Shown piece by piece: positions 19,684 through 59,821 of a DNA stretch of 64,000 bases. Origin of the DNA: Naegleria gruberi (taxonomy: Eukaryota); NCBI GenBank assembly GCA_000004985.1, contig GG738858.1. The stretch is one strand, 5' to 3'. Position numbers and translations under genes: made by a program. Under the pieces are notes generated by a model. It had not been told where the DNA came from, did not search any database, and saw nothing but the letters and a program-made list of their open reading frames with translations. How positions within the stretch are numbered: position 1 is the stretch's first letter; every line of letters begins with the position of its first letter.

Positions 19684-19949
19684 TTTTTACTAAGGATTGG
19701 TTCAAAAATATGGCGCCAAAACATGTATTTGCTTTTAGCGCCAAAAATAAATCAATATATTTGATGTATGGTGACATATTCTGAGGAGTGAATAAGAGTT
19801 AATACTATTAATATTAATTATTCTGAACAACAACATCATGAGATTGATTATTTATCTTTTTAATAGACTTAAAACAAACTATTTTGTAAAAATTCAAAAA
19901 GGTATTGTAATATCAATAGAATTTGTTATTTACATTTAGTGCCAAAAAA

Positions 19950-22900
19950 ATGCAACCAGCCAATCGAAAGCCAATCAAGGTCAAACCATCGAAAGGTTCT
20001 AGCACACAACAACCTGTAATTATAACAACCTCATCATCTAATCATCAACAAAATAATTCCGAATCACATTCTCCATCACCTCTAATTTTATCACCCACAA
20101 CCACTGGCACAAATAATTATGTATTTGAAAATGAAGGAGAACAAAACGAACAAAAAACCAACAAGAAAATCAGAGCAAAAAGAACAGGAGGGATATTGGG
20201 AAACTTTTTCGACGTTTCTAAAAATTTAAATGAAAATACACTAAATCAAATGGAATCCAAGATGAAAGAAATTATTGAATCGAGAAATTTGTTTAAAGAA
20301 AATAACTTGGAGTTGTGTGAAATGATCATGTCTGCTGATGTGGAATCGAAGAATGAATCAATTTCTCAACAAGAAATTCTCAAAATTGATTTGATAAATA
20401 GGCAAATGGCCGAATTGGAATCATTTGAAACAAATCTGAATAACTTTATTCAATCAAATGGCTCTTCTGGAATTACAAATCATCTTGTAAACGCTGTTAA
20501 TACAAGAAATGCTATGAGAAATGAGTGTATGAATAATCTTAACGAAGTTACTAACTTGTTGGGTGAAACATTGGAATCAATGAAAAATGACATCCCCGTA
20601 GAAAGGATTCAAAAAATAGATGAAATTCATTCAAAAATTCTTTTAGAAGAAGATGTTTTATCAGTTTCTGGTTCTGGTGAGTCTTTCAATATGTATGAGT
20701 TTAATAGGAGATCAAAGGAATACTTTGAGTGGGTTAAAAAATCCAGTCCAAAACTGATTATTCAATACAAGGAAACAAAGGCTGTTTTCAAGAAGTTTCT
20801 AGAAGCAATGGAAAAAGAGCTAAATCTTATGAAAGAGGTTAAAGAGGAGGAGAAGAAAATGATGGATAATTTTGAGTATATAATTACCTACACTCCTGAA
20901 TATTTGGAGGCAAAGCGACAAACAACTGCTGAGCCAAGTGAAAGAAAGACTCATATCAAGGAGTTACATAGCTACTATTTGAAACGTAAAATTGAAATGG
21001 AATCCAAAACACAACTACCACTTAAACCAGACCTTGAAAGCGTCAATCTATTTTACAATCAGCTTAACTCTTTGAAAACAGACTTGAGAGAGGCTAAAAG
21101 AAATCATCTAAAATTGAAATTTGAAAAAGAAAATCATGAGTTGGATGGAGTTTCTCAGTCTATTCTACAAATTTCAACACAAAAAGTTCAAGAAGCATCT
21201 GAGGTAGTTCATAGAATCGAAGAAAAGATTCAGCTATTTGAATCTAATCTAGAAAAATCCATCAAATTGCATCCAGAAATTTTAATTTACATTAACAGTT
21301 TCTCTAAGAATGATGATCTTATTCCTATATCAATTAAGGATACAAAGTTGGAGGTGAAGAGATCTATCAAAGATTATGAAATATTGAAAATAATCAATCC
21401 AAGGGTTTGCAAAGCAAAATTTGCTAACCAAATATCAATAATCAAACAGTACTCTTTTTCAGATAGCAAATCAAGAAAAGAGTTTATGAAGGAGGTTCAA
21501 ATTTTACACAAAATGAATCATCCTTGTATTGTAAAGATAGAAGCGTACTTTTGTGAGAATGACTTTGTATTTATTCAAATGGAACACAAAGGAGATTTAA
21601 CTCTAGCTGATTGGCTCCTTAAATCTCCTTCAGAATATGAAAAACGAAATGTATTTCACTCTGTGGCACAAACTTTGAAATATGTGCACGACTTTAATAT
21701 TATTCACTGTGACATCAAACCAGAGAATATAATAATGTCACCAATCGGTTCTAAATCAATTGGATCCGTACAGGAGATATATGAATCATATAGACCTATT
21801 CTTATTGACTTTGATATATCAGTTGACAAGAATTCCTTACAAAATTCTTTAGCAATCCGATCCACTTTAACTTACTTGGCTCCAGAAGTTGTTCATGCAG
21901 CTTCTACAGGTGCAGATTTCAAGAGTGTTTTGAATACATCAATAGATGTTTGGTCATTTGGTGTTATGATGTTTAAGGCATACTATCCAAATGATGAGGT
22001 GTTGCTTCTTCCAAACGAACACTCAGTAAGAATACCAGAACATGAAAATCAATATTTGCAAGATCTTTTATCAAATATTTTACAAAGAGACGCAAAAGAT
22101 AGACCTTGTGCTGAAGATATTTACTCTCATATCTATTTCAACTCGTCCATCATGAATGAACTAGTATCTCAAAAACAAATAGTTAGTACAGAAGACAAGA
22201 TGCAATCATTCAATAGATTTCTGCATCACTACAAGAAAAGAATGCAAAGGAACACTTCAGATGTTATTCAAATACGTATGAGAAGAGATGCAATAGTAGG
22301 TCACACATTACAAGCATTTTCATCTATGGAAATCAATGACTTACTTTTGAGACTTCAAGTGCAATTTGTTGGTGAAATTGGAATGGATTTGGGAGGAATT
22401 ACATCTAATATGTATACAGAGTTCTTCAGACAATCAATACAAAATGATCATAACATTTTTGAATGTGGTTCAAGCTCTAAAACTGGAGGTTACCTACCAA
22501 AGGCAGATGCACCAGTTGAGGTTTGTGAAAGTATTGGAAAAATTTTAATCAAAACAATTTACGATCAAAGAGTTATTCCAGAAGTGCTTTCTCCTTTCAT
22601 ATTCAAGTTTCTTTCACACAAATATTCATCAAGCGATCCTGATTACAATTCTTTGCAAGTAACTTTCAGAGATTTGGAACAATTTGATGAATCTATGGCA
22701 AGATCTTTGAGAATGCTCCTTACTCATGAAGGAGTGCACGAATGGGAAATTTCTTTTGATGGCCTGGGACAAGACTCTAATAGAATGGTAAATGATCAAA
22801 ATAAGCACGATTATGTTAAAATGAAAATGAGAAATGTTCTCTTACTCTCAAGATTAGAACAATTGAAAGCTATTAGGAAAGGTTTTAATTCGCTTGTTGA

Positions 22901-23309
22901 GCTTCAGCCTCAGCTGGCATTATTTAGTTGGAAAGAGCTAATGCTGCTTTGTTGTGGAAAGGATTATATTGATGTAAAATCAGTGATTGACCTATTGAAG
23001 TTCAAAGATTTCCCTACTAATAGTAGGACTCCTTTATTTTTCACTCAATTTATTTCTTCACTCTCTAGCATTCAGTTAAGGCAATTTATTGAATTCTCCA
23101 CTGGTCAATGTGGAATTTCCTACGGATGGCAATCCAAGGCTCTGAGCATCACTGTACAATACTCTTCCTCTTCAGTTGATTCATTACCTGTTTCTCATAT
23201 TTGCTCATTCATATTAGACCTTCCTGACTATAACAATTATCAACTTTTAGAAACGAAAATTAAGCAAGCTTTCGAATTTACCTCATCCTCCGGCTTTTAC
23301 ATTGCTTAG
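19950..23309 (+). CDS. protein kinase domain fused to C-terminal HECT E3 ubiquitin-ligase domain (coiled-coil N-terminus)
   Basis: The kinase core is HPCIVKI...IIHCDIKPENIIM...IDFDIS...LTYLAPEV...DVWSFGVMM. The HECT start is LRLQVQFVGEIGMDLGGITSNMYTEFFRQ. The HECT end is LPVSHICSFILDLPDYNNYQLLETKIKQAF...SSGFYIA*, with the catalytic Cys context. The first in-frame ATG is at 19950; the ORF-track start 19923 is a TTG. Confidence 0.75.
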   Translation: MQPANRKPIKVKPSKGSSTQQPVIITTSSSNHQQNNSESHSPSPLILSPTTTGTNNYVFENEGEQNEQKTNKKIRAKRTGGILGNFFDVSKNLNENTLNQMESKMKEIIESRNLFKENNLELCEMIMSADVESKNESISQQEILKIDLINRQMAELESFETNLNNFIQSNGSSGITNHLVNAVNTRNAMRNECMNNLNEVTNLLGETLESMKNDIPVERIQKIDEIHSKILLEEDVLSVSGSGESFNMYEFNRRSKEYFEWVKKSSPKLIIQYKETKAVFKKFLEAMEKELNLMKEVKEEEKKMMDNFEYIITYTPEYLEAKRQTTAEPSERKTHIKELHSYYLKRKIEMESKTQLPLKPDLESVNLFYNQLNSLKTDLREAKRNHLKLKFEKENHELDGVSQSILQISTQKVQEASEVVHRIEEKIQLFESNLEKSIKLHPEILIYINSFSKNDDLIPISIKDTKLEVKRSIKDYEILKIINPRVCKAKFANQISIIKQYSFSDSKSRKEFMKEVQILHKMNHPCIVKIEAYFCENDFVFIQMEHKGDLTLADWLLKSPSEYEKRNVFHSVAQTLKYVHDFNIIHCDIKPENIIMSPIGSKSIGSVQEIYESYRPILIDFDISVDKNSLQNSLAIRSTLTYLAPEVVHAASTGADFKSVLNTSIDVWSFGVMMFKAYYPNDEVLLLPNEHSVRIPEHENQYLQDLLSNILQRDAKDRPCAEDIYSHIYFNSSIMNELVSQKQIVSTEDKMQSFNRFLHHYKKRMQRNTSDVIQIRMRRDAIVGHTLQAFSSMEINDLLLRLQVQFVGEIGMDLGGITSNMYTEFFRQSIQNDHNIFECGSSSKTGGYLPKADAPVEVCESIGKILIKTIYDQRVIPEVLSPFIFKFLSHKYSSSDPDYNSLQVTFRDLEQFDESMARSLRMLLTHEGVHEWEISFDGLGQDSNRMVNDQNKHDYVKMKMRNVLLLSRLEQLKAIRKGFNSLVELQPQLALFSWKELMLLCCGKDYIDVKSVIDLLKFKDFPTNSRTPLFFTQFISSLSSIQLRQFIEFSTGQCGISYGWQSKALSITVQYSSSSVDSLPVSHICSFILDLPDYNNYQLLETKIKQAFEFTSSSGFYIA

Positions 23310-51537: not shown

Positions 51538-53166
51538 CTAATTTGATGTTCTCAATTTAAAATCACTAAAGTCAATACCCATAACACTATATCTAATCTT
51601 CTTAATGGTATCTTGATCTTTTGCTCCGTTAAGTGAGAAGAAACAATTATCCCTCAATCGACCATTCTCCTCAATTACTTCAACCTCTGTATCGCCAATC
51701 ACAACAAATGATCTGTCGAATGCTTTCAATAGCCAAAAATCTTGATTACCTTCAACAGTTTTGAAATATTCGAGTGAGTCGATAAAATTGCAAAATATGT
51801 TGAGTGATTTTCTATTCTTAAAAGTAGAGGAGTTCTTGTTGGTGTAATCATTGGAAATATTAGTCTTACTAATCATATCTCTCAAAATTTCAGAGAAATA
51901 GAATGTTCGGTCAACTTTTCCATTCCTTAAATTATCAAAATACTTGTCAAAGCATTCACTCTTTGGAAGTTGCAAATTCAAAGCAGATAGTACCTCAGAT
52001 GTGAAATGTTGGCAATTGGCTTTGAATTGGTGATATTGAACTGATCCATTATATTTACAAATAATTTCAGTCAACTTTCTAAATGTTTGCTTAACATTCT
52101 CAGCACCACGTATTTCTCCAATGTCAATTGCTGCAATTGTCTTGTCAGATTTGATTTGTTGAATAGAGTCACTCCTTACAATAACAGTTGATGAGTTGAA
52201 CCATTCAATCTTCCATTCACCAATTAAAAGGCCAGTATGAACAATTCCCATATCAGCATTTGAAAAGTAGCTCATTAACTTGGTCATAAAAGGACTATTA
52301 CCTAAATCAGAAATCAACAACTTGACTCGCAGAAATGGTTCACAATTAAGCTTCTTTGAATTTTGCTTAACAATAGAACTCATAAATTCCCTATTCAATA
52401 ATCTATCTTCACACACCAAGTTTTGAGCATCCACTTCCAAATCGCCTGTCATTCTAGCATCTTTGGGAGTTCTATTATTCTTTCTCAAGAAATCATAATA
52501 TTTCTCTAACTTTTTCTTGGCCATTCCAACTCGATCCTTTTCTAAAAGAGTTAATCTGTTTGCACTATATTGGACATCGGTTGTGGTTGGGTACGCAGTA
52601 GCATCAATAATAGCAGGTGTTGGAGAAATACTTGGCTTTGAGAAAAGTGTTTCATTGATTGATTCAAAAGTTTTGTTGGGTTTGTTCACTGGGTTGACAG
52701 AGGTAGAATTCTGGCCAGCTTGACCATCTGATTCCAAAGTATCTTCCGAGACATTTAGTACTAATCTATTCGAATCATCTTCAAACTTGACTCTTCCACT
52801 CTTTTCATCATCAATTTTCTTCTTCATGATAACTTGTTCCAAAAACACAATTGCAGAAATATTATCAATCTTGTACTTGGACATCTTTTGTTGCAACAGT
52901 TCCTTTTCTTGTTGAATTTTGGCATAATTAGTTTCCTTTGCCAACCCTTCGAATAACTTTCCATTAAAATCATTGTTCATTGTTACAGCATTTATGACAG
53001 TATCGTTCTTGAAATTGTAATGAATACATAAACAAAACAAGTCCCTATTGCTACATTCTCGAAGAGGTTTTGCCTCTGCCTCTTCAATCTCATCACTGGG
53101 TGGACTGATTTCTTCAGAGAATCTAATAATACTTGACGTGTTGCCCATTTTTTTAAATTGTATCAT
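51538..53166 (-). CDS. PPPDE/DeSI-type (Peptidase_C97) cysteine peptidase domain protein with ~170-aa conserved C-terminal extension
   Basis: The His motif is VHTGLLIGEWKIEW and the Cys motif is KANCQHFTSEVLSALNLQLP, matching DeSI-1 WHTGIVVH and [21 protein letters not shown]. A second ATG (MGNTSS, 53148) is a possible myristoylated start. Confidence 0.6.
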   Translation of the reverse strand: MIQFKKMGNTSSIIRFSEEISPPSDEIEEAEAKPLRECSNRDLFCLCIHYNFKNDTVINAVTMNNDFNGKLFEGLAKETNYAKIQQEKELLQQKMSKYKIDNISAIVFLEQVIMKKKIDDEKSGRVKFEDDSNRLVLNVSEDTLESDGQAGQNSTSVNPVNKPNKTFESINETLFSKPSISPTPAIIDATAYPTTTDVQYSANRLTLLEKDRVGMAKKKLEKYYDFLRKNNRTPKDARMTGDLEVDAQNLVCEDRLLNREFMSSIVKQNSKKLNCEPFLRVKLLISDLGNSPFMTKLMSYFSNADMGIVHTGLLIGEWKIEWFNSSTVIVRSDSIQQIKSDKTIAAIDIGEIRGAENVKQTFRKLTEIICKYNGSVQYHQFKANCQHFTSEVLSALNLQLPKSECFDKYFDNLRNGKVDRTFYFSEILRDMISKTNISNDYTNKNSSTFKNRKSLNIFCNFIDSLEYFKTVEGNQDFWLLKAFDRSFVVIGDTEVEVIEENGRLRDNCFFSLNGAKDQDTIKKIRYSVMGIDFSDFKLRTSN

Positions 53167-54187: not shown

Positions 54188-54670
54188 TTACCTCTTTAAT
54201 ACACAATCACTGAAATCAACATCTTTAACACTGTACTTGATATGAGTGATGGAATCTTGATCTCTTCCTCCATTAGTTGTGAAGAATCCATTCTCTTTGA
54301 CTCCTGTAGAATCAAAAGTAAGACAAATTTCATCCTCCCCAACCAAAACAAATGACCTATCAAATGCCTTCAAAAGCCAAAAATCACTTTGACCTGCCTC
54401 AATGTCAAAATATTTGATATGTTCAAGAAAATGACAAAATTCATCCAATGATTTTCTATTCTCGAATCTAATGTTCTTCAAACCAATATAAGGGTTTGTA
54501 ATGTTGCATGTTTTAAATAATGTTGCCAAATTTTCATTCACAAAGAAAGTTCTGTCAGTTTCTCCTCTTTTCAATTTGTCAAAATAAATTTTGAAAGATT
54601 CACTCACTGGAAGTGTCAAATTCAATGCCTCTAATAAATCTGAAACGAAATGTTGGCAATTAGCCCCCAA
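54188..54670 (-). pseudogene. N-terminally truncated paralogue of the PPPDE-domain gene (Cys-motif half plus conserved C-terminal extension only)
   Basis: ANCQHFVSDLLEALNLTLP...FWLLKAFDRSFV...IKYSVKDVDFSD aligns along the last ~160 aa of 51538..53166. An in-frame TAA lies directly upstream, and no plausible intron is found. Confidence 0.5.
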
Positions 54671-54782
54671 TAATGAATAATCTTAGTAATACCGTTTCAG
54701 TTTTACCTAGTTGTAATAAACACCGGAAATTTATTTATGATTTTAACAATAAAAGCTGAAAGTAGTTAAATGATGATATTTG

Positions 54783-54784
<2 letters not shown>

Positions 54785-54818
<34 letters not shown>
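54785..54818. repeat. (AT)17 microsatellite
   Basis: atatat... run. Confidence 0.9.
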
Positions 54819-54821
<3 letters not shown>

Positions 54822-54962
54822 AATTGATGTTAGATATTAGTTGTTCCATTTATTTTTAAACTACTCCATCAACCTCCATGAATCTAGTTGTCTATTTCTT
54901 GTTGTAAGAGTTTTTCTTTGTTTTAATTAACAACTATCACAACTCTACTTTTACTACTTCTA

Positions 54963-55067
54963 ATGTTCTTATCGAAGTTTACTGAGATAAAGTAGTGTTT
55001 CTTGAAAACAACAATTGAATAAACTAATAATAGAAAGTATGCTCAAAAAAATTGTCATACTATGGTC
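54963..55067 (+). repeat. split direct repeat A1 (105 bp; contains gag ATG at 55062)
   Basis: Identical copy at 58999..59103. Confidence 0.85.
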
Positions 55068-56189
55068 GCTAAGAAGCCTCAAGATATTGACTCCTCTTCA
55101 TCTGATGAAGATCTCCCAGCAGTTGAAGTAGAATACCCCACAACACCAGTGAAAGCAAGAAAACAACAAGCTGCTAAGAAGCTTAGAAAGTTAAAGGCCA
55201 TGTCACCTGTAGCTAATAGAAATAAGCGCAAACAATCTACTTCAGTTTCATCATCTAACAGTGCCTTAGATGATGGTATTTCAACTGTTGTTTCCAGTTC
55301 GTTGCTAAGCAATTCAACTTTGTTGGATAGTTCTTCAACTGCACCCTCTTCGTCAAACAATTCGTCTTCTTCCAATTCAGGTAGAGATAGTTTTGCCAGT
55401 AGTTCATCTGAACATGATATCATGGCGATCAAAGCCCAAATGCAAGAAATGATTGGAGTTTTGAGAACCGTAACAGGAAATATCTCTGAACTTACTAAGA
55501 AAGTTCAGGAGAGAGAAGAAGAATCAGATGATGATTTTGTTAATCCAGAAGCTATATCTCCAGAAGTTTGGTTACGTCAAACTTATAGAGACCTTAGAAG
55601 TTCTTACAATGTTCCTTCATCTATTGGAGATGATTTATTACTTTCTGCAGTATCCTCCGAGATACTTAAAGACCGTAAACAAGAGGAGACCAAGAGAAGA
55701 ATTCAATATTTGCTCCTTAAATACAAGGATGTGATTTCCAAGTTTGCCCCAGACATTAGATTGGATGAGATTAACAGTATTGGTTATTCTAAACTAGTAG
55801 AGTTAACTCAAATCAAAATTGAATTGTTGGAATATGCATTGAATTCTCCACTTGATTTTACAGTCATGACAGAGATTACAGAACTTTGTAGAATGATTTG
55901 CAAAGTTGAAGCCCTCTTCCTTAAAGAAGGTTTACAAGTTTCCACTTTCGATGTTGGTAGAGAATTCCTTAACAGATACATTTCTACTAATAGTTTCGAA
56001 ACTGCTGCCGAAAGTGAACTTCATAATATTAGAACAACATATCATTACTACAAAGCAACCAAGCAGCAACAAGGTCCAAAGGGAATTACCAAGAAGTATT
56101 CTAAGAAGAAACCGTTTCAAAAGAAAAACAATAAGGGTCAAGGAAACGGTGGTAAATTCCAAGGAAAAGATAAGGATAAGTCAGAATGA
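55062..56189 (+). CDS. retroelement ORF1, gag-like (S-rich N-terminus, basic KKNNKGQGNGGKFQGKDKDK tail)
   Basis: The first ORF after A1 starts on the ATG inside the repeat. It overlaps the pol frame by ~280 nt. Confidence 0.65.
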   Translation: MVAKKPQDIDSSSSDEDLPAVEVEYPTTPVKARKQQAAKKLRKLKAMSPVANRNKRKQSTSVSSSNSALDDGISTVVSSSLLSNSTLLDSSSTAPSSSNNSSSSNSGRDSFASSSSEHDIMAIKAQMQEMIGVLRTVTGNISELTKKVQEREEESDDDFVNPEAISPEVWLRQTYRDLRSSYNVPSSIGDDLLLSAVSSEILKDRKQEETKRRIQYLLLKYKDVISKFAPDIRLDEINSIGYSKLVELTQIKIELLEYALNSPLDFTVMTEITELCRMICKVEALFLKEGLQVSTFDVGREFLNRYISTNSFETAAESELHNIRTTYHYYKATKQQQGPKGITKKYSKKKPFQKKNNKGQGNGGKFQGKDKDKSE

Positions 56190-58062
56190 CTCTTCCACTC
56201 CCTCCTTCCAAGGAGGAAGATTACAACAGTTTTGGAAAAAGTGGCAAATCTTCCCCAAAACTGTTGCAGAATGGATAAGAGAGGGTATTCCAATCCATTC
56301 AGAAAAAGAAAAATGGATCGATATTCCACTAAGATCTCATTTTTCAGAAAAGGAAGATTCATGGTTAAAGAGCGAAATCTCAGATTTACTCAAAACCAAT
56401 ATTATAGAAATTGGAAACAAGGACACTGTCATAAATCCGATTCACGTGGTTCCGAAGAAAGGCAAAGACCAGTTTCGTCTAATCCTAGATTTGAGATCCA
56501 TAAATGCTGGTATAAACAACGACTCATTCAAAATGGATCATATTCACAAAACTCTAAAGTTTCTATCAAAAGACATGTTAGGAATCAAAATAGATTTGAT
56601 GAAAGGTTATCATCACGTTCCAGTGAAGGAAACAGATCGAAAGTTATTGGGATTCAGGTACAACGGCCAGATTTACCATTACAAGTGCCTACCATTCGGT
56701 CTGAACATTGCTCCAAGATTATTCTCCAAGATAATGAAGGTCTTAGTTCAAAGATGGAGAGTAAGAGGAATCTCGGTATTCATTTATTTAGACGATATCT
56801 TAGTGGTAAATCATTCAAAAGATCAGTTGATCTTAGACAGAGATATAGTTCTAAAGGATTTAGAAGAGTTTGGATTCCTCATTCAAAAAGACAAATGTTG
56901 TTTAAATCCAACTCAATTAATAGAATACCTAGGAGTTTTGTTAGACTTTCATCAAGGTTTGGTAAAAATTCCAGAAGACAAAAGGATTACAGCTTTAGAA
57001 TTCATAGAGGAGCTACTCAATGCTTCCCAGAAACGGCTTTATGTTCCATGCAAGAGAGTTGCCAAGTTCCTAGGAAAGTTGGAATTTCTAACAATTGCCA
57101 ACAAGTACCTTTCACCATTCATGTGTCGTCTTCGAAAGAACATGGTTTCAGTAGTATCAGGAAGAGGTTGGCACGCATCAATGCAAATTCACAAAGGCGC
57201 ATTCAAGGATTTATTGATTCTAAGGGAGTTAATTCAAAAGAACGATGGTCATCCGTTCGAATTGGATTGGATTCTCCCAGTGATTGTGAATTCAGATGCA
57301 ACACCTCAAGGTTTCGGCATTCACTCAGGTTCAATCGTTACTGTTGGAAAGTTCAATGGAGAAGAGCACATCAATGTCAAGGAACTAAGAGCCTTACTGC
57401 TTTATTTCAAACAAGCAGACGAATTAAATCTTTATCCAGATTTCACAAATTTCGAATTGAGAGTAGACAACATGGTAGCCGTGGCATATCTAAAGAAGGG
57501 TTATGGATCAAAAGACGATCTCGCAAAGATAGCAAGAGACATCTCAAAGATTCTAATGAGAAGAAATTGGTGGATTTGCAAAGTGATTTACATCCCATCC
57601 AAACAGAATTTCCTAGCAGACAGGTTGAGTCGATTGATGGATTGGGGATCCACCAAGGAACTAATCGAATTAGTCAACCAAGAATTTGGAATACACCATG
57701 TGGACAGATTTGCAACAACGAGTTCGGCAACTACCCTTGTATTCAATTCATGGAAAGAGAACGACGCGTTCAAAAGTCTTTGGGAAAAAGAACTAGTGAG
57801 TTATTGTGTTCCTCCAATAGGATTGATCAGTCAAGCTCTCATTCATCTTATCAAATCCAGATCAATAGCGACATTTGTAATTCCAGAATGGAGCTCCTCG
57901 ATTTGGTGGCCTCTACTCTTAAAGCTATTAAAGAAGAGAAAAAGTATCACAAGAAGGATGCTTTTAATCAAACTATTATCCGAATTATGGATCAAATTCG
58001 AAGGAACGACGTTCATAATTGCTCATCTGGATGGAAACTTATACTTCAAACCAGAGATTTAG
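55906..58062 (+). CDS. retroelement ORF2, reverse transcriptase/RNase H (pol)
   Basis: The RT motifs are LDLRSIN, FGLNIAPRLF and VFIYLDDILVV. The RNase H end reads IPSKQNFLADRLSR. The frame overlaps the end of gag, so the true pol start is probably upstream of the first ATG, via frameshift. Confidence 0.75.
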   Translation: MKPSSLKKVYKFPLSMLVENSLTDTFLLIVSKLLPKVNFIILEQHIITTKQPSSNKVQRELPRSILRRNRFKRKTIRVKETVVNSKEKIRISQNDSSTPSFQGGRLQQFWKKWQIFPKTVAEWIREGIPIHSEKEKWIDIPLRSHFSEKEDSWLKSEISDLLKTNIIEIGNKDTVINPIHVVPKKGKDQFRLILDLRSINAGINNDSFKMDHIHKTLKFLSKDMLGIKIDLMKGYHHVPVKETDRKLLGFRYNGQIYHYKCLPFGLNIAPRLFSKIMKVLVQRWRVRGISVFIYLDDILVVNHSKDQLILDRDIVLKDLEEFGFLIQKDKCCLNPTQLIEYLGVLLDFHQGLVKIPEDKRITALEFIEELLNASQKRLYVPCKRVAKFLGKLEFLTIANKYLSPFMCRLRKNMVSVVSGRGWHASMQIHKGAFKDLLILRELIQKNDGHPFELDWILPVIVNSDATPQGFGIHSGSIVTVGKFNGEEHINVKELRALLLYFKQADELNLYPDFTNFELRVDNMVAVAYLKKGYGSKDDLAKIARDISKILMRRNWWICKVIYIPSKQNFLADRLSRLMDWGSTKELIELVNQEFGIHHVDRFATTSSATTLVFNSWKENDAFKSLWEKELVSYCVPPIGLISQALIHLIKSRSIATFVIPEWSSSIWWPLLLKLLKKRKSITRRMLLIKLLSELWIKFEGTTFIIAHLDGNLYFKPEI

Positions 58063-58967
58063 GGATGTTGGTTTCGATTAAGGAAGAAACCTTCAAACTT
58101 TACACTAGAAACTATAATGGTTTCTTATGGTTTATTACTGCATTCAATATTTCAATGGATGACCCTTATGCTATTGAGTATTATGCAGCTTATCTTACAA
58201 TTCAAGGTCAAACATCTCGTGTTGAAGCCTTGAGACCATCCCTTCAATTTTGGGCCAATATTGAGAGAAGAGTTTTTCCAATTTCATGGTCTTATGATAA
58301 GATTAAAAGAGGAATTACTCTTATTTGGTCCTTGATTGATAGAAAAGCTTTGAAACGTGATCCAATTTTCTATCATCATATTGAAGGTTTCATTCAGAGA
58401 AAAGATCATTATGATCCTTTCATTTTCAAACTCACTAGTGCCATGTTAGTCATTGGTTTCAGACTTTTCGCTAGACCAGGTGAATTAGCTAGACTCAAGT
58501 GGGGTTATGTTACAAAGCTTAGAAATGGTAACATCAAATTAGATCTCAGTGGTCACAAAACAGATTTCTTTCTACTAGAAAAGCCGATTACTATTGACAA
58601 GCATCTTGAAAATCCTTCAGTGTGTCCAGTGAAATTGCTTTTTGATTACATAGACACTGTACAGCATTTCAAAAAAGCAGATTCACCATTGTTTTCATTG
58701 CAGGACAATATTTTCTTCAACACTGAAGATGTTTCTCAACTTATCAAGAATGCTATGTTCTCTGTTGATTCAGAAATCACTGTTTCTGGTCACAGTTTAC
58801 GTATTGGTGCAACTACTGAGAGTATTATCAAGGGAATTCCTACTCAGGATATTATTATGGGGACTAGACATAAGGATGTGAAATCTTTACAACCTTATCA
58901 AAGACAAGAAGCTCTTGCAGCTCGCCACTTGTCTACTACTCTCCTTTCTCGGGACAATATCCATTAG
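56232..58967 (+). CDS. retroelement ORF3: 911-codon frame overlapping pol, C-terminal 300 aa (58065..58967) is the tyrosine recombinase
   Basis: The YR box I/II reads ARPGELARLKWGYV...GHKTD...HSLRIGATTE...GTRHKDVKSLQPYQR. The upstream ~610 codons are a basic R/S/K-rich frame with no stop, although they overlap pol in AT-rich DNA. Confidence 0.6.
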   Translation: MEKVANLPQNCCRMDKRGYSNPFRKRKMDRYSTKISFFRKGRFMVKERNLRFTQNQYYRNWKQGHCHKSDSRGSEERQRPVSSNPRFEIHKCWYKQRLIQNGSYSQNSKVSIKRHVRNQNRFDERLSSRSSEGNRSKVIGIQVQRPDLPLQVPTIRSEHCSKIILQDNEGLSSKMESKRNLGIHLFRRYLSGKSFKRSVDLRQRYSSKGFRRVWIPHSKRQMLFKSNSINRIPRSFVRLSSRFGKNSRRQKDYSFRIHRGATQCFPETALCSMQESCQVPRKVGISNNCQQVPFTIHVSSSKEHGFSSIRKRLARINANSQRRIQGFIDSKGVNSKERWSSVRIGLDSPSDCEFRCNTSRFRHSLRFNRYCWKVQWRRAHQCQGTKSLTALFQTSRRIKSLSRFHKFRIESRQHGSRGISKEGLWIKRRSRKDSKRHLKDSNEKKLVDLQSDLHPIQTEFPSRQVESIDGLGIHQGTNRISQPRIWNTPCGQICNNEFGNYPCIQFMERERRVQKSLGKRTSELLCSSNRIDQSSSHSSYQIQINSDICNSRMELLDLVASTLKAIKEEKKYHKKDAFNQTIIRIMDQIRRNDVHNCSSGWKLILQTRDLGMLVSIKEETFKLYTRNYNGFLWFITAFNISMDDPYAIEYYAAYLTIQGQTSRVEALRPSLQFWANIERRVFPISWSYDKIKRGITLIWSLIDRKALKRDPIFYHHIEGFIQRKDHYDPFIFKLTSAMLVIGFRLFARPGELARLKWGYVTKLRNGNIKLDLSGHKTDFFLLEKPITIDKHLENPSVCPVKLLFDYIDTVQHFKKADSPLFSLQDNIFFNTEDVSQLIKNAMFSVDSEITVSGHSLRIGATTESIIKGIPTQDIIMGTRHKDVKSLQPYQRQEALAARHLSTTLLSRDNIH

Positions 58968-59000
58968 TTTATTTATTGTTGGTTTTCTTTTAAGAAACAT
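58957..59000 (+). repeat. split direct repeat B1 (44 bp)
   Basis: Identical copy at 59778..59821. Confidence 0.8.
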
Positions 59001-59103
59001 GTTCTTATCGAAGTTTACTGAGATAAAGTAGTGTTTCTTGAAAACAACAATTGAATAAACTAATAATAGAAAGTATGCTCAAAAAAATTGTCATACTATG
59101 GTC
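58999..59103 (+). repeat. split direct repeat A2
   Basis: Identical to A1. Confidence 0.85.
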
Positions 59104-59777
59104 CCACCCTTGCCCACCCTCTATTATTATTAGTTTATTCAAATCAAAGGTTCTAACCTTTGTCCTTAATACTTTGGAATGTGATTTTTTAACCAATCCT
59201 CAAATATTTTCTCAATTGATTGAAAGATTTCACTCTATTTGTATTATTGAAAGATGATTGTTATCATCTTTTTATCTTTGTATTATTATTTGATATTTGA
59301 CATCATTTATTGATGTTTTTTATCATGATTGGTGATCTAAAACCAATTGTTGGTGATCTAAAACCGACAGATCAACTTTATGTTGATTAGAAGGTATCTG
59401 ATACCTTTCCCTTACTATTAGTAAGGCAATATGTACTGAACATACCTCTTTTCTCATTCTCGTTTTGATTCGTAAGTGTCAAGACGGTTGAGTAGGTTTT
59501 TTAATTCTTAACTTTTTAGTTTTTACCGATTTTTTTTTTTTTTCCTACAAGAGTAGGTTTTTTTATATGGGAGTTGTTTCTCCAAAAAACAACTTGGTTT
59601 ATTGTCAGATTGCTTTAATTTAGTTTAGTTTTTGCTTTTTGTTAAGAAATCATAGTATGATTGTATTGATTAGTTTATTTAATTTCTGGACCTGCTGAAT
59701 AAAGCTTAATGCCTAAAAACAGCAGTAACCAGGCTACAAACTACCTAAGAATAGGTAGAAGTTGTAGTGTGAGCTTT

Positions 59778-59821
59778 ATATCCATTAGTTTATTTATTGT
59801 TGGTTTTCTTTTAAGAAACAT
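59778..59821 (+). repeat. split direct repeat B2
   Basis: Identical to B1. Confidence 0.8.

What the first reader, a model, noticed from the sequence alone, without database searches (positions are those of the whole stretch)
56232..58967. 911-codon open frame overlapping pol in a second frame, ending in the tyrosine recombinase
The frame carrying the YR domain stays open for ~610 codons upstream of the recombinase. Over that whole stretch it overlaps the RT/RNase H frame, which has YLDD at ~56790 and RNase H ending near 57620. At the local ~35% GC, stops occur at roughly 0.07 per random codon, so 600 stop-free codons by chance is effectively impossible. The overlap frame must therefore be under selection. 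Either it is a genuinely overlapping gene encoding an R/S/K-rich N-terminal extension of the recombinase, or it is constrained in some other way. As far as I recall, DIRS1 itself has an overlapping YR/pol arrangement, but here the recombinase is 3' of RT/RH.
Basis: seen in the sequence. Interest (0 to 1): 0.6.

Follow-up and report, generated by a model that had tools for sequence, protein, structure and literature searches.

The report
Retrotransposon's stop-free bridge frame to recombinase
An intact tyrosine-recombinase retrotransposon in a Naegleria-like genome keeps a second reading frame free of stop codons across its whole polymerase gene; this overlap is real and selected but is a known hallmark of DIRS-type elements, and only its openness, not its protein sequence, is conserved.

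Summary
The frame holding the recombinase is open from 56190 to 58967. Over about 623 codons it overlaps pol (RT, RNase H, methyltransferase-like domain) in the -1 frame.

Synonymous reshuffling of pol predicts 40 +/- 4 stops in that frame; there are none. Four diverged relatives (25-52% pol identity) also have none (20-33 expected) and a fifth, decayed one has 1 (17 expected). Five relatives without the overlap sit at expectation.

The overlap product is no more conserved between lineages than a non-coding control frame. Selection therefore keeps the frame open, not its sequence. The 300 residues after pol's stop already form a complete Cre-like recombinase.

The open frame is gag's own frame and starts at gag's stop. 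That stop is TGA-C in all five overlap elements where it is visible.

My best reading, which is inferred: ribosomes cross pol in this frame to reach the recombinase, probably by reading through gag's leaky UGA.

Extensive pol/recombinase overlap is already described for DIRS-type elements. This is a new, intact PAT-like member from a Naegleria-like host, not a new kind of system.

The parts
54964..55067 (+). 5' terminal repeat A1 (5' UTR plus the gag ATG)
   Evidence: It is 100% identical to 58999-59103. The same left boundary is seen in the independent copy L001.
55062..56189 (+). gag-like ORF1, 375 aa, with a K/G/N/Q-rich tail
   Evidence: ORF. It has no Pfam family. Its position and basic tail match the gag ORFs of relatives L002-L005 and L008.
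56185..56190 (+). AATGAC: gag stop TGA (56187-56189) followed by C. This is the candidate recoding site. In pol's frame it reads Asn-Asp.
   Evidence: AATGAC is invariant in the four lineages of this clade, although the surrounding sequence is not alignable. TGA-C is also the gag stop in the distant overlap element L008. Four of five non-overlap relatives use a different stop context (TAA-T, TAA-A, TAA-A, TAG-G); the fifth (L060) also has TGA-C.
55897..58062 (+). pol open frame, +1 relative to gag: RT (YLDD at 56785), RNase H (ends about 57630) and a Dam-like methyltransferase-like domain. The conserved part begins just after gag's stop (GGRL at about 56217).
   Evidence: Pfam RVT_1 E=4.8e-26, Dam E=9e-4 and RVT_3 E=0.02. 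The motifs are located. Openness upstream of gag's stop is explained by the composition of the gag tail.
56190..58064 (+). Overlap frame 'X', 625 codons, -1 relative to pol and in gag's frame. It is stop-free and its predicted product is R/S/K-rich.
   Evidence: There are 0 stops against 40 +/- 4 expected. It has no Pfam or PDB match. Its sequence is no more conserved than the non-coding control frame, and its K+R content equals the value expected from pol's codons.
58065..58967 (+). Complete tyrosine recombinase, 300 aa from an ATG 2 nt past pol's TAG stop, in frame with X
   Evidence: Pfam Phage_integrase E=1.4e-4. A profile of 8 homologues matches Cre residues 19-313 at E about 1e-17. The catalytic Arg (ARPGEL), Lys (HKTD), HSLR and Tyr are aligned.
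58957..59000 (+). Internal repeat B1. It overlaps the recombinase stop.
   Evidence: It is 100% identical to 59778-59821.
59001..59103 (+). Internal repeat A2. The B1|A2 boundary is the presumed circle junction.
   Evidence: It is 100% identical to A1. In L001 the sequence after B1-A2 runs on into gag.
59104..59777 (+). Unique AT-rich non-coding stretch of 674 nt between A2 and B2
   Evidence: It has no similarity to the rest of the element (sequence). It is unusual for split direct repeats, where A2 and B2 normally abut (PMC6681497).
59778..59821 (+). 3' terminal repeat B2
   Evidence: It is 100% identical to B1.

Best explanation
The locus is one young, intact tyrosine-recombinase (YR) retrotransposon of the DIRS order. 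It runs from 54964 to 59821, has split direct repeats and so is PAT-like, and sits in a Naegleria-like genome.

The 911-codon ORF has two parts. One is a complete Cre-like recombinase of about 300 aa. The other is a 625-codon stretch, X, which is the -1 frame of pol.

Shown here: X is kept free of stop codons by strong purifying selection in every lineage of this clade and in two distant overlap lineages. Its amino-acid sequence and composition are not selected.

Inferred mechanism: X is a translated bridge. Ribosomes must cross the pol region in this alternative frame to reach the recombinase, so any stop is lethal to that route while the residues are irrelevant.

The most likely entry point is gag's own stop codon.
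- X is in gag's frame and starts at that stop.
- The stop is always UGA followed by C and preceded by A, which to my knowledge is a leaky context in eukaryotes.
- Termination there would give Gag and readthrough would give Gag-X-YR.
- A +1 shift at the same A-AU-GAC site, or initiation in the gag/pol overlap, would give Pol.

The element has no protease. A Gag-X-YR fusion would be a way to make the third ORF from one mRNA and to carry the recombinase along with Gag.

The ATG conserved at pol's stop may additionally yield free recombinase by termination-reinitiation.
For: Selection for openness:
- Stops in the overlap frame, observed/expected: window 0/40, L002 0/33, L003 0/29, L004 0/29, L007 0/20 and L008 1/17.
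- Relatives without the overlap sit at expectation: L005 66/67; L059 77/71, L060 44/48, L061 64/60 and L062 38/36.
- The lineages are old: pol identity is 47-59% and gag identity 15-32%.

Openness only:
- X identity is 0.26-0.35 against a null of 0.23-0.31.
- The excess (z -0.1 to 3.7) matches that of the stop-filled +1 frame (z -0.8 to 3.1), and the K+R content equals the null.
- Synonymous-site identity is flat along pol.

X is an extra, not part of the enzyme:
- The recombinase profile starting at the ATG by pol's stop covers all of Cre.
- Most homologues in 1.84 billion representative proteins are about 300 aa and start there.

Entry at gag's stop:
- The same frame holds gag and X with a single stop between them.
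- There is no stop between gag's stop and the first frame-0 ATG, which lies 28, 20, 43 and 40 codons downstream in the four lineages. My estimate of the joint chance is about 1e-3.
- The gag stop is TGA-C in 5/5 overlap elements, including the distant L008, against 1/5 non-overlap elements.
- AATGAC is invariant within otherwise unalignable sequence.
- No conserved pol-frame ATG lies near gag's stop.

Supporting case from L007:
- There gag and pol share one frame, and X starts a few codons before a C9 run that forms a C_CCC_CCC slippery motif in pol phase.
- This fits ribosomes switching frame at the gag/pol junction.
Against: - No translation data exist; the fusion product is purely inferred.
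- No conserved RNA structure follows gag's stop (consensus -3 kcal/mol).
- An ATG at the start of the recombinase is conserved at pol's stop: ATGA in L002, L003, L004 and L007, and TAG-GG-ATG here. This points to an independent route, termination-reinitiation, that does not need X.
- Four of the five TGA-C cases belong to one clade, so the association (Fisher p about 0.02) is weaker than it looks. One non-overlap element (L060) also has TGA-C.
- In L007 the X frame has several stops upstream, so readthrough from gag cannot be the universal entry.
- A 625-residue unconstrained linker is costly and unusual.
- A 99% identical copy (L001) carries two X-frame stops, although this looks like neutral decay.
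Confidence: 0.45

Rival explanations
1. X-YR is a free-standing 900-aa recombinase whose translation starts inside the element, at an AUG or near-cognate codon shortly after gag's stop. X would be a functional but sequence-tolerant, disordered, basic N-terminal extension, for example for nuclear import or non-specific nucleic-acid binding. Only its length, openness and charge would matter.
For: - The frame is selected open.
- The product is basic: K+R is about 21% and net charge about +0.13 per residue.
- Frame-0 ATGs lie 20-43 codons after gag's stop in every lineage.
- Gene callers in many metagenomes predict 870-1064 aa ORFs with similar extensions.
- In Dictyostelium, ORF II-GFP expressed on its own gives a detectable protein (PMC3950715).
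Against: - X shows no residue-level conservation above the non-coding control, and its basic composition is what pol's codons give for free.
- The frame-0 ATGs are not positionally conserved.
- The frame is open upstream of the first ATG in all four lineages (joint P about 1e-3).
- Scanning ribosomes would have to pass all of gag to start there.
- Half of DIRS-like elements do without any extension (PMC3266345).
Confidence: 0.25
2. The recombinase is made only as the 300-aa protein from the ATG at pol's stop, by termination-reinitiation or a similar coupling. The open frame upstream would then be kept for a reason unrelated to producing the recombinase, such as tolerance of ribosomes that slip into the -1 frame.
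For: - An ATG overlaps pol's stop as ATGA in L002, L003, L004 and L007, and lies 2 nt after it here.
- Non-overlap relatives also have tight stop/start spacing between ORFs, e.g. L005 gag TAA-TC-ATG pol.
- The enzyme is complete from that ATG.
Against: - It leaves unexplained the strongest signal in the data: 0 stops where 20-40 are expected, in five of the six overlap lineages examined (the sixth, decayed, has 1 against 17 expected).
- In L008 the recombinase's N-terminal domain starts upstream of pol's stop, so there is no stop-start there.
- To my knowledge, reinitiation after a roughly 700-1000-codon ORF is normally very inefficient in eukaryotes.
Confidence: 0.15
3. The open frame is a by-product of pol's codon and amino-acid composition, or of dinucleotide bias, and is not selected.
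For: - T before A-starting codons is generally low in this clade: about 14% before AC/AT codons.
- Long overlapping ORFs can arise by chance, as in the gypsy elements L009 and L042 (0 stops against 4.4 and 1.9 expected).
Against: - Synonymous shuffles never gave fewer than 22 stops in 2000 trials.
- Pooled over the four lineages of this clade, T precedes AA/AG codons in 0/437 cases against 51/377 before AC/AT codons, and GA codons in 0/268 cases.
- Five non-overlap relatives sit at expectation.
- A neutral copy gained 2 stops in only 6 substitutions.
Confidence: 0.01

Closest known systems
DIRS1-like retrotransposons (Dictyostelium DIRS-1 and relatives): long pol/YR ORF overlap
   Same: - ORF order is gag, then RT/RNase H/methyltransferase-like pol, then the tyrosine recombinase (YR).
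- There is no protease or DDE integrase.
- The YR ORF overlaps pol extensively, and its catalytic domain lies in the non-overlapping 3' end. This was reported in half of 28 annotated elements (PMC3266345) and called 'frequently extensively overlapped' (PMC6681497).
   Different: - The termini here are split direct repeats, not inverted terminal repeats with an internal complementary region.
- The host is a heterolobosean, where DIRS1-like elements were previously rated uncertain (PMC3266345).
- The papers I could read give no mechanism for the overlap. They do not report that only openness is conserved, nor the link between gag's frame and a UGA-C stop.
PAT-like elements (PAT, kangaroo, TOC): DIRS-order elements with split direct repeats
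   Same: - The repeat order is A1 at the 5' end and B1-A2-B2 at the 3' end, with 100% identical pairs, as described for the PAT, Ngaro and VIPER groups (PMC6681497).
- A methyltransferase-like domain is present, as in the DIRS1/PAT groups.
   Different: - A2 and B2 are separated by 674 nt of unique sequence.
- I did not place the element on an RT phylogeny with reference PAT elements.
Retroviral and alphaviral programmed stop-codon readthrough (MLV gag-UAG-pol; Sindbis UGA-C) and +1 frameshifting at stop or hungry codons (antizyme, Ty1/Ty3)
   Same: - A single stop ends gag and an in-frame open frame leads to a downstream enzyme.
- The stop context is UGA followed by C and preceded by A.
- A second product lies in the +1 frame at the same site.
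The resemblance rests on my own knowledge of these systems.
   Different: - No conserved downstream stem-loop or pseudoknot was found.
- The readthrough product would contain 625 unconstrained residues encoded in the alternative frame of another gene. I know of no precedent for this.
- Nothing has been tested experimentally.
Overprinted (dual-coding) viral genes
   Same: Two frames are open over about 1.9 kb, and the newer frame's product is basic and probably disordered.
   Different: Overprinted genes normally depress synonymous change in the older frame. No such signal is seen here.

Membership tests
DIRS order (tyrosine-recombinase retrotransposons) | Reverse transcriptase plus RNase H pol | tested here: met
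   Pfam RVT_1 E=4.8e-26 and a weak RVT_3 match. The motifs YLDD, NSDAT and ADRLSR are present. The closest homologues are DIRS-type pol proteins.
DIRS order (tyrosine-recombinase retrotransposons) | Tyrosine recombinase in place of a DDE integrase, and no aspartic protease | tested here: met
   A recombinase profile matches Cre, Tre, XerA and XerD, with Cre at E about 1e-17 over residues 19-313. The catalytic R, K, HxxR and Y are aligned. No rve or protease families appear in any ORF.
DIRS1-like superfamily, strict sense | Inverted terminal repeats plus an internal complementary region | tested here: not met
   The repeat search finds direct pairs A1/A2 (105 nt) and B1/B2 (44 nt). The only inverted match is 25 nt at 80% between part of A and part of B.
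DIRS1-like / PAT-like | Methyltransferase-like domain after RNase H | tested here: inconclusive
   Pfam Dam E=9e-4 at 19.4 bits, below the 28.1-bit cut-off, over residues 580-673. Homologues P0006, P0007, P0011 and P0016 carry a PF05869 annotation. The motifs DRFA...F.SW...DAF...PP...P.W are conserved.
DIRS1-like / PAT-like | Long overlap of the recombinase ORF with pol, with the catalytic domain in the non-overlapping 3' end | tested here: met
   The feature is described in PMC3266345.
PAT-like superfamily | Split direct repeats: A1 at the 5' end and B1-A2-B2 at the 3' end | tested here: met
   The order A1...B1|A2...B2 is found, with both pairs 100% identical. One caveat: 674 nt lie between A2 and B2.
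Ngaro-like superfamily | No methyltransferase domain and usually no ORF overlaps | tested here: not met
   A methyltransferase-like region and a 1.9-kb overlap are both present. The criteria are from PMC3266345.
Programmed stop-codon readthrough sites | Leaky stop context with an in-frame downstream ORF | tested here: met
   The contexts are GAA-TGA-C here and CAA/AAA/AAA/GGG-TGA-C in L002, L003, L004 and L008. In each case the downstream frame is open through to the recombinase.
Programmed stop-codon readthrough sites | Conserved stimulatory RNA structure 3' of the stop | tested here: not met
   RNAalifold consensus energy is -2.97 kcal/mol with 7 pairs. Single-sequence z-scores range from -3.5 to +0.5.
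Programmed stop-codon readthrough sites | Measured readthrough product | not testable with these tools
   This needs reporter assays, ribosome profiling or mass spectrometry.
Dual-coding (overprinted) genes | Purifying selection on both protein sequences, seen as reduced synonymous change in the older frame | tested here: not met
   The excess identity in X equals that of the non-coding +1 frame. Third-position identity in pol is 0.42-0.52, against 0.35-0.59 in gag and the recombinase.

The most novel reading that the evidence does not exclude
Gag's stop in this clade would be a three-way recoding site: termination gives Gag, a +1 shift gives Gag-Pol, and UGA readthrough gives Gag-X-YR. X would be a 625-codon 'sequence-free' bridge, written in the spare frame of pol and selected only to lack stop codons. 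That would be a protease-less element's way of expressing its third gene and tethering it to Gag. It would also be a general explanation for the long-noted but unexplained ORF overlaps of DIRS-type elements.
Probability: 0.3. Interest if true: 0.7.

Novelty: new member of a known kind. Interest (0 to 1): 0.4.

Why it matters
The pol/recombinase overlap has been part of the description of DIRS elements since DIRS-1 was sequenced. None of the papers I could read says what it is for.

This window and its relatives make the question sharper.
- Selection is very strong: 0 stops where 20-40 are expected, held across lineages whose gag proteins are only 15-32% identical.
- Selection is blind to the encoded residues.
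- The open frame is tied to gag's frame and to a UGA-C stop.

Together these give a concrete model that a few reporter or retrotransposition experiments could test. A genetically tagged DIRS-1 retrotransposition assay already exists in Dictyostelium (PMC7192593).

The window also documents an intact, evidently recent DIRS-order element in a heterolobosean. An earlier survey rated the presence of such elements in Naegleria as uncertain (PMC3266345).

Tried and rejected
- **Compositional artefact.** Rejected by synonymous shuffles and by context-specific avoidance of T. Gypsy elements L009 and L042 served as examples of chance long ORFs.
- **Dual coding with a conserved X protein.** Rejected: there is no excess conservation over the non-coding control frame, and no local peak apart from a mild rise in the last 40 or so pol codons.
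- **X as a known domain.** X has no Pfam match above noise and no PDB match. A word-indexed search with the 911-aa ORF found nothing.
- **A conserved -1 slippery heptamer in pol leading into X.** No shared position exists. Nothing canonical lies at 58040-58065.
- **A conserved RNA structure after gag's stop.** None was found.
- **Selection for pol-frame openness upstream of gag's stop.** This is explained by the amino-acid composition of the gag tail, with P(0 stops) of 0.5-1.
- **Other copies in the window.** There are none.
- **L001's two X-frame stops as a refutation.** The sample is too small, and the syn:nonsyn ratio of 5:8 together with the C>T bias fits neutral decay.
- **Exact-match look-up of the window's gag.** It is not on record. 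P0002 (77% identity) has no retrievable DNA.
- **Metagenome scan.** It returned only distant relatives.
- **Key reviews.** Goodwin & Poulter 2001, Poulter & Goodwin 2005 and Poulter & Butler 2015 are not held. I cannot exclude that they discuss a mechanism.
Full report
**1. Observation**

The ORF at 56232..58967 (+, 911 aa) exists and overlaps the pol ORF 55906..58062.

- The frame with position mod 3 = 0 is open from 55023 to 58965 except for one stop at 56187.
- That stop ends gag (55062-56189). The open overlap frame, which I call X, therefore begins at 56190 and is gag's own frame.
- Pol lies in the +1 frame relative to gag, and X is the -1 frame of pol.
- The third frame has 70 stops across the overlap.

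**2. Is it chance or codon bias?**

No.
- I shuffled synonymous codons of pol, keeping the protein and codon usage. The shuffles gave 39.9 +/- 4.3 stops in X, with a minimum of 22 in 2000 trials. The observed number is 0.
- The means of avoidance is visible. None of the 188 pol codons that precede an AA-, AG- or GA-starting codon ends in T, against 149/434 elsewhere.
- T is still used before AC, AT, GC, GG and GT codons, so the avoidance is stop-specific and not a TpA or TpG effect.

**3. What the element is**

- Pfam finds RVT_1 (E=4.8e-26), a weak RNase H-like match and a weak Dam-like match in pol. It finds Phage_integrase (E=1.4e-4) in the last 300 residues of the long ORF, and nothing in X or gag.
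- A profile of eight homologous recombinases, each starting at the ATG next to pol's stop, matches Cre over residues 19-313 at E about 1e-17. The catalytic Arg, Lys, His-x-x-Arg and Tyr are aligned. The non-overlapping 300 aa are therefore already a complete two-domain recombinase, and X is an extra.
- The termini are split direct repeats: A1 54964-55067 = A2 59001-59103, and B1 58957-59000 = B2 59778-59821. Both pairs are 100% identical, which indicates recent insertion.
- There are no inverted terminal repeats. By its termini the element is PAT-like rather than DIRS1-like in the strict sense (criteria from PMC6681497 and PMC3266345).
- One oddity: 674 nt of unique AT-rich sequence lie between A2 and B2.
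- The host is a Naegleria-like heterolobosean. A flanking RRM protein is 58% identical to a Naegleria lovaniensis protein, and the next named match is from Acrasis kona.

**4. Relatives**

A search with pol found relatives at 99, 77, 52, 49 and 47% identity, and many at 25-30%. I retrieved DNA for twelve DIRS-like loci.

Stops in the -1 frame of pol, observed against expected from shuffles:

| Element | Long overlap? | Observed | Expected |
|---|---|---|---|
| window | yes | 0 | 40 |
| L002 | yes | 0 | 33 |
| L003 | yes | 0 | 29 |
| L004 | yes | 0 | 29 |
| L007 (28% identity, GC 49%) | yes | 0 | 20 |
| L008 (25% identity, GC 55%, decayed) | yes | 1 | 17 |
| L005 | no | 66 | 67 |
| L059 | no | 77 | 71 |
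| L060 | no | 44 | 48 |
| L061 | no | 64 | 60 |
| L062 | no | 38 | 36 |

- Two gypsy elements with long overlapping ORFs (L009, L042) are at chance level (0 against 4.4 and 1.9). The test therefore discriminates.
- The four lineages of the window's clade are old. Pol identity among them is 47-59% and gag identity 15-32%.
- The open frame is thus a conserved, selected trait. It is present in some DIRS-order lineages and absent in others, as the literature says: half of 28 elements (PMC3266345).

**5. What is selected**

Only openness is selected.
- Third-position identity at codons with the same pol residue is 0.42-0.52 in pol, against 0.35-0.59 in gag and the recombinase.
- The X products of different lineages are 26-35% identical. 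The null distribution gives 23-31%. That null comes from synonymous shuffles that keep pol and keep X open.
- The small excess in X (z -0.1 to 3.7) equals the excess in the +1 frame (z -0.8 to 3.1). The +1 frame is full of stops and cannot be coding.
- X's basic character (K+R about 21%) equals the null. Only Ser is somewhat enriched.
- A sliding window shows no conserved sub-domain apart from a mild rise over the last 40 or so pol codons.
- X has no Pfam or PDB match.

X is therefore not a classical overprinted gene.

**6. The nearly identical copy**

L001 is 99.2% identical to the window's element. It has two C>T changes, at window positions 56661 and 57018. Each turns CAA into TAA in X and is synonymous in pol. 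Pol and the recombinase stay intact.

- The 13 coding substitutions split 5 synonymous to 8 non-synonymous, which is close to neutral.
- 16.5% of all C>T changes in the overlap create X stops.
- Copies of a transposon diverge mainly after insertion.

If anything, the copy shows how quickly X fills with stops once selection is lifted.

**7. How ribosomes could enter X**

Four observations point to gag's stop.
- X is in gag's frame and begins at gag's stop in the window, L002, L003, L004 and L008.
- The first frame-0 ATG lies 28, 20, 43 and 40 codons downstream, yet no stop intervenes. My estimate of the joint probability, at the shuffled stop rates, is about 1e-3.
- The gag stop is TGA followed by C in all five overlap elements. 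The hexamer AATGAC is invariant in the four clade members, although the neighbouring sequence cannot be aligned. Non-overlap relatives have TAA-T, TAA-A, TGA-C, TAA-A and TAG-G.
- To my knowledge, UGA followed by C is among the leakiest termination contexts in eukaryotes.

Pol has no conserved ATG near its conserved N-terminus (GGRL..F..W, about 10 codons after gag's stop). Its openness upstream of gag's stop is explained by the composition of the gag tail. Pol may therefore be reached by a +1 shift at the same site, where U-GAC reads Asp in pol's frame.

In L007, gag and pol are one frame. There X starts a few codons before a C9 run that forms a C_CCC_CCC slippery motif in phase. This fits a frame switch at the same junction.

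Negative results:
- no conserved RNA structure after the stop;
- no shared -1 slippery site inside pol.

**8. A competing signal**

The recombinase's first Met is conserved at pol's stop. It appears as ATGA in L002, L003, L004 and L007, and as TAG-GG-ATG here. Most database homologues are about 300 aa proteins that start there. This suggests termination-reinitiation as a route to free recombinase.

That route does not explain why X is open. It is also not universal: in L008 the recombinase's N-terminal domain begins upstream of pol's stop. The two routes could coexist.

**9. Best explanation and its status**

Shown:
- the element's identity;
- selection for an open frame in several old lineages;
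- the absence of sequence-level selection on X;
- the shared frame with gag, and the TGA-C stop.

Inferred: X is a translated bridge that lets ribosomes cross pol to make the recombinase, most likely as a Gag-X-YR readthrough fusion. The element has no protease, so such a fusion would also tether the recombinase to Gag.

My confidence in this mechanism is about 0.45. The rivals are:
- an internally initiated X-YR protein with a sequence-tolerant basic extension (0.25);
- reinitiation only, with X kept open for some other reason (0.15);
- a compositional artefact (refuted).

**10. Comparison with what is known**

- Extensive pol/recombinase overlap, with the catalytic domain in the non-overlapping 3' end, is a stated feature of DIRS1-like elements (PMC3266345; also PMC6681497, PMC3783388, PMC9210276, PMC3950715).
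- About ten clusters of 870-1064 aa predicted proteins have the same junk-like extension in front of a recombinase. They show that the arrangement is widespread.
- None of the papers I could read explains the overlap, reports that only openness is conserved, or notes the link between gag's frame and UGA-C. The three key reviews are not in the library, so I cannot claim priority for those points.

**11. Verdict**

This is a real, strongly selected feature that is already part of the description of its family. It is seen here in a new, intact PAT-like member from a Naegleria-like host. Interest is moderate: the phenomenon is known, but its purpose is open, and these data make it directly testable.

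Noticed in passing
window 59104-59777: 674 nt of unique, AT-rich, non-coding sequence, including a T14 run at 59530, lie between repeat A2 and terminal repeat B2. In published split-direct-repeat elements, A2 and B2 abut. In the near-identical copy L001 the sequence after B1-A2 runs into gag instead, which suggests a tandem or circular junction.
   Followed up: partly
window 58963-58987 and 59040-59064: A 25-nt imperfect inverted repeat (80%) brackets the B1|A2 junction at 59000/59001. The same A segment also occurs at 55004-55028. It may be a recombinase binding site or a structure used in circle formation.
   Followed up: no
L007 379-387: A C9 homopolymer lies a few codons after the start of the overlap frame in a distant DIRS-like element whose gag and pol share one frame. 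It could be a -1 slippage site or a sequencing or assembly artefact.
   Followed up: partly
L061 3744-3750 and L062 6303-6309: In two non-overlap DIRS-like relatives, pol and the recombinase are in the same frame and separated by a single stop (TGA-C and TAA-G). In L061 the stop is followed by a sequence resembling a 3' splice site. Readthrough or splicing may link the two ORFs there.
   Followed up: no
L009 1747-3045 and L042 4173-6521: Two Ty3/gypsy elements from metagenomes have 432- and 782-codon ORFs overlapping pol in the +1 frame. Shuffling shows these are expected by chance at their composition (0 stops against 4.4 and 1.9 expected).
   Followed up: yes
window 51538-53166 (-) and 54188-54670 (-): Two tandem paralogous host ORFs share a C-terminal region containing an 'ANCQHF' motif. 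Pfam finds nothing in the longer one at E<=1e-5. The shorter one looks truncated and lies just upstream of the element.
   Followed up: no
window 54776-54837: A (TA)n microsatellite lies about 130 nt upstream of the element's 5' end.
   Followed up: no
window 19923-23309 (+): A host ORF of 1128 aa combines a protein kinase domain with a C-terminal HECT ubiquitin-ligase domain, which is an unusual fusion.
   Followed up: no
window 55821-55829 and 58310-58318 (versus L001): The only two indels between the window copy and L001 are both 9 nt and in frame, one in gag and one in the recombinase. This hints that the two copies descend from distinct active sub-lineages rather than differing purely through decay.
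   Followed up: partly
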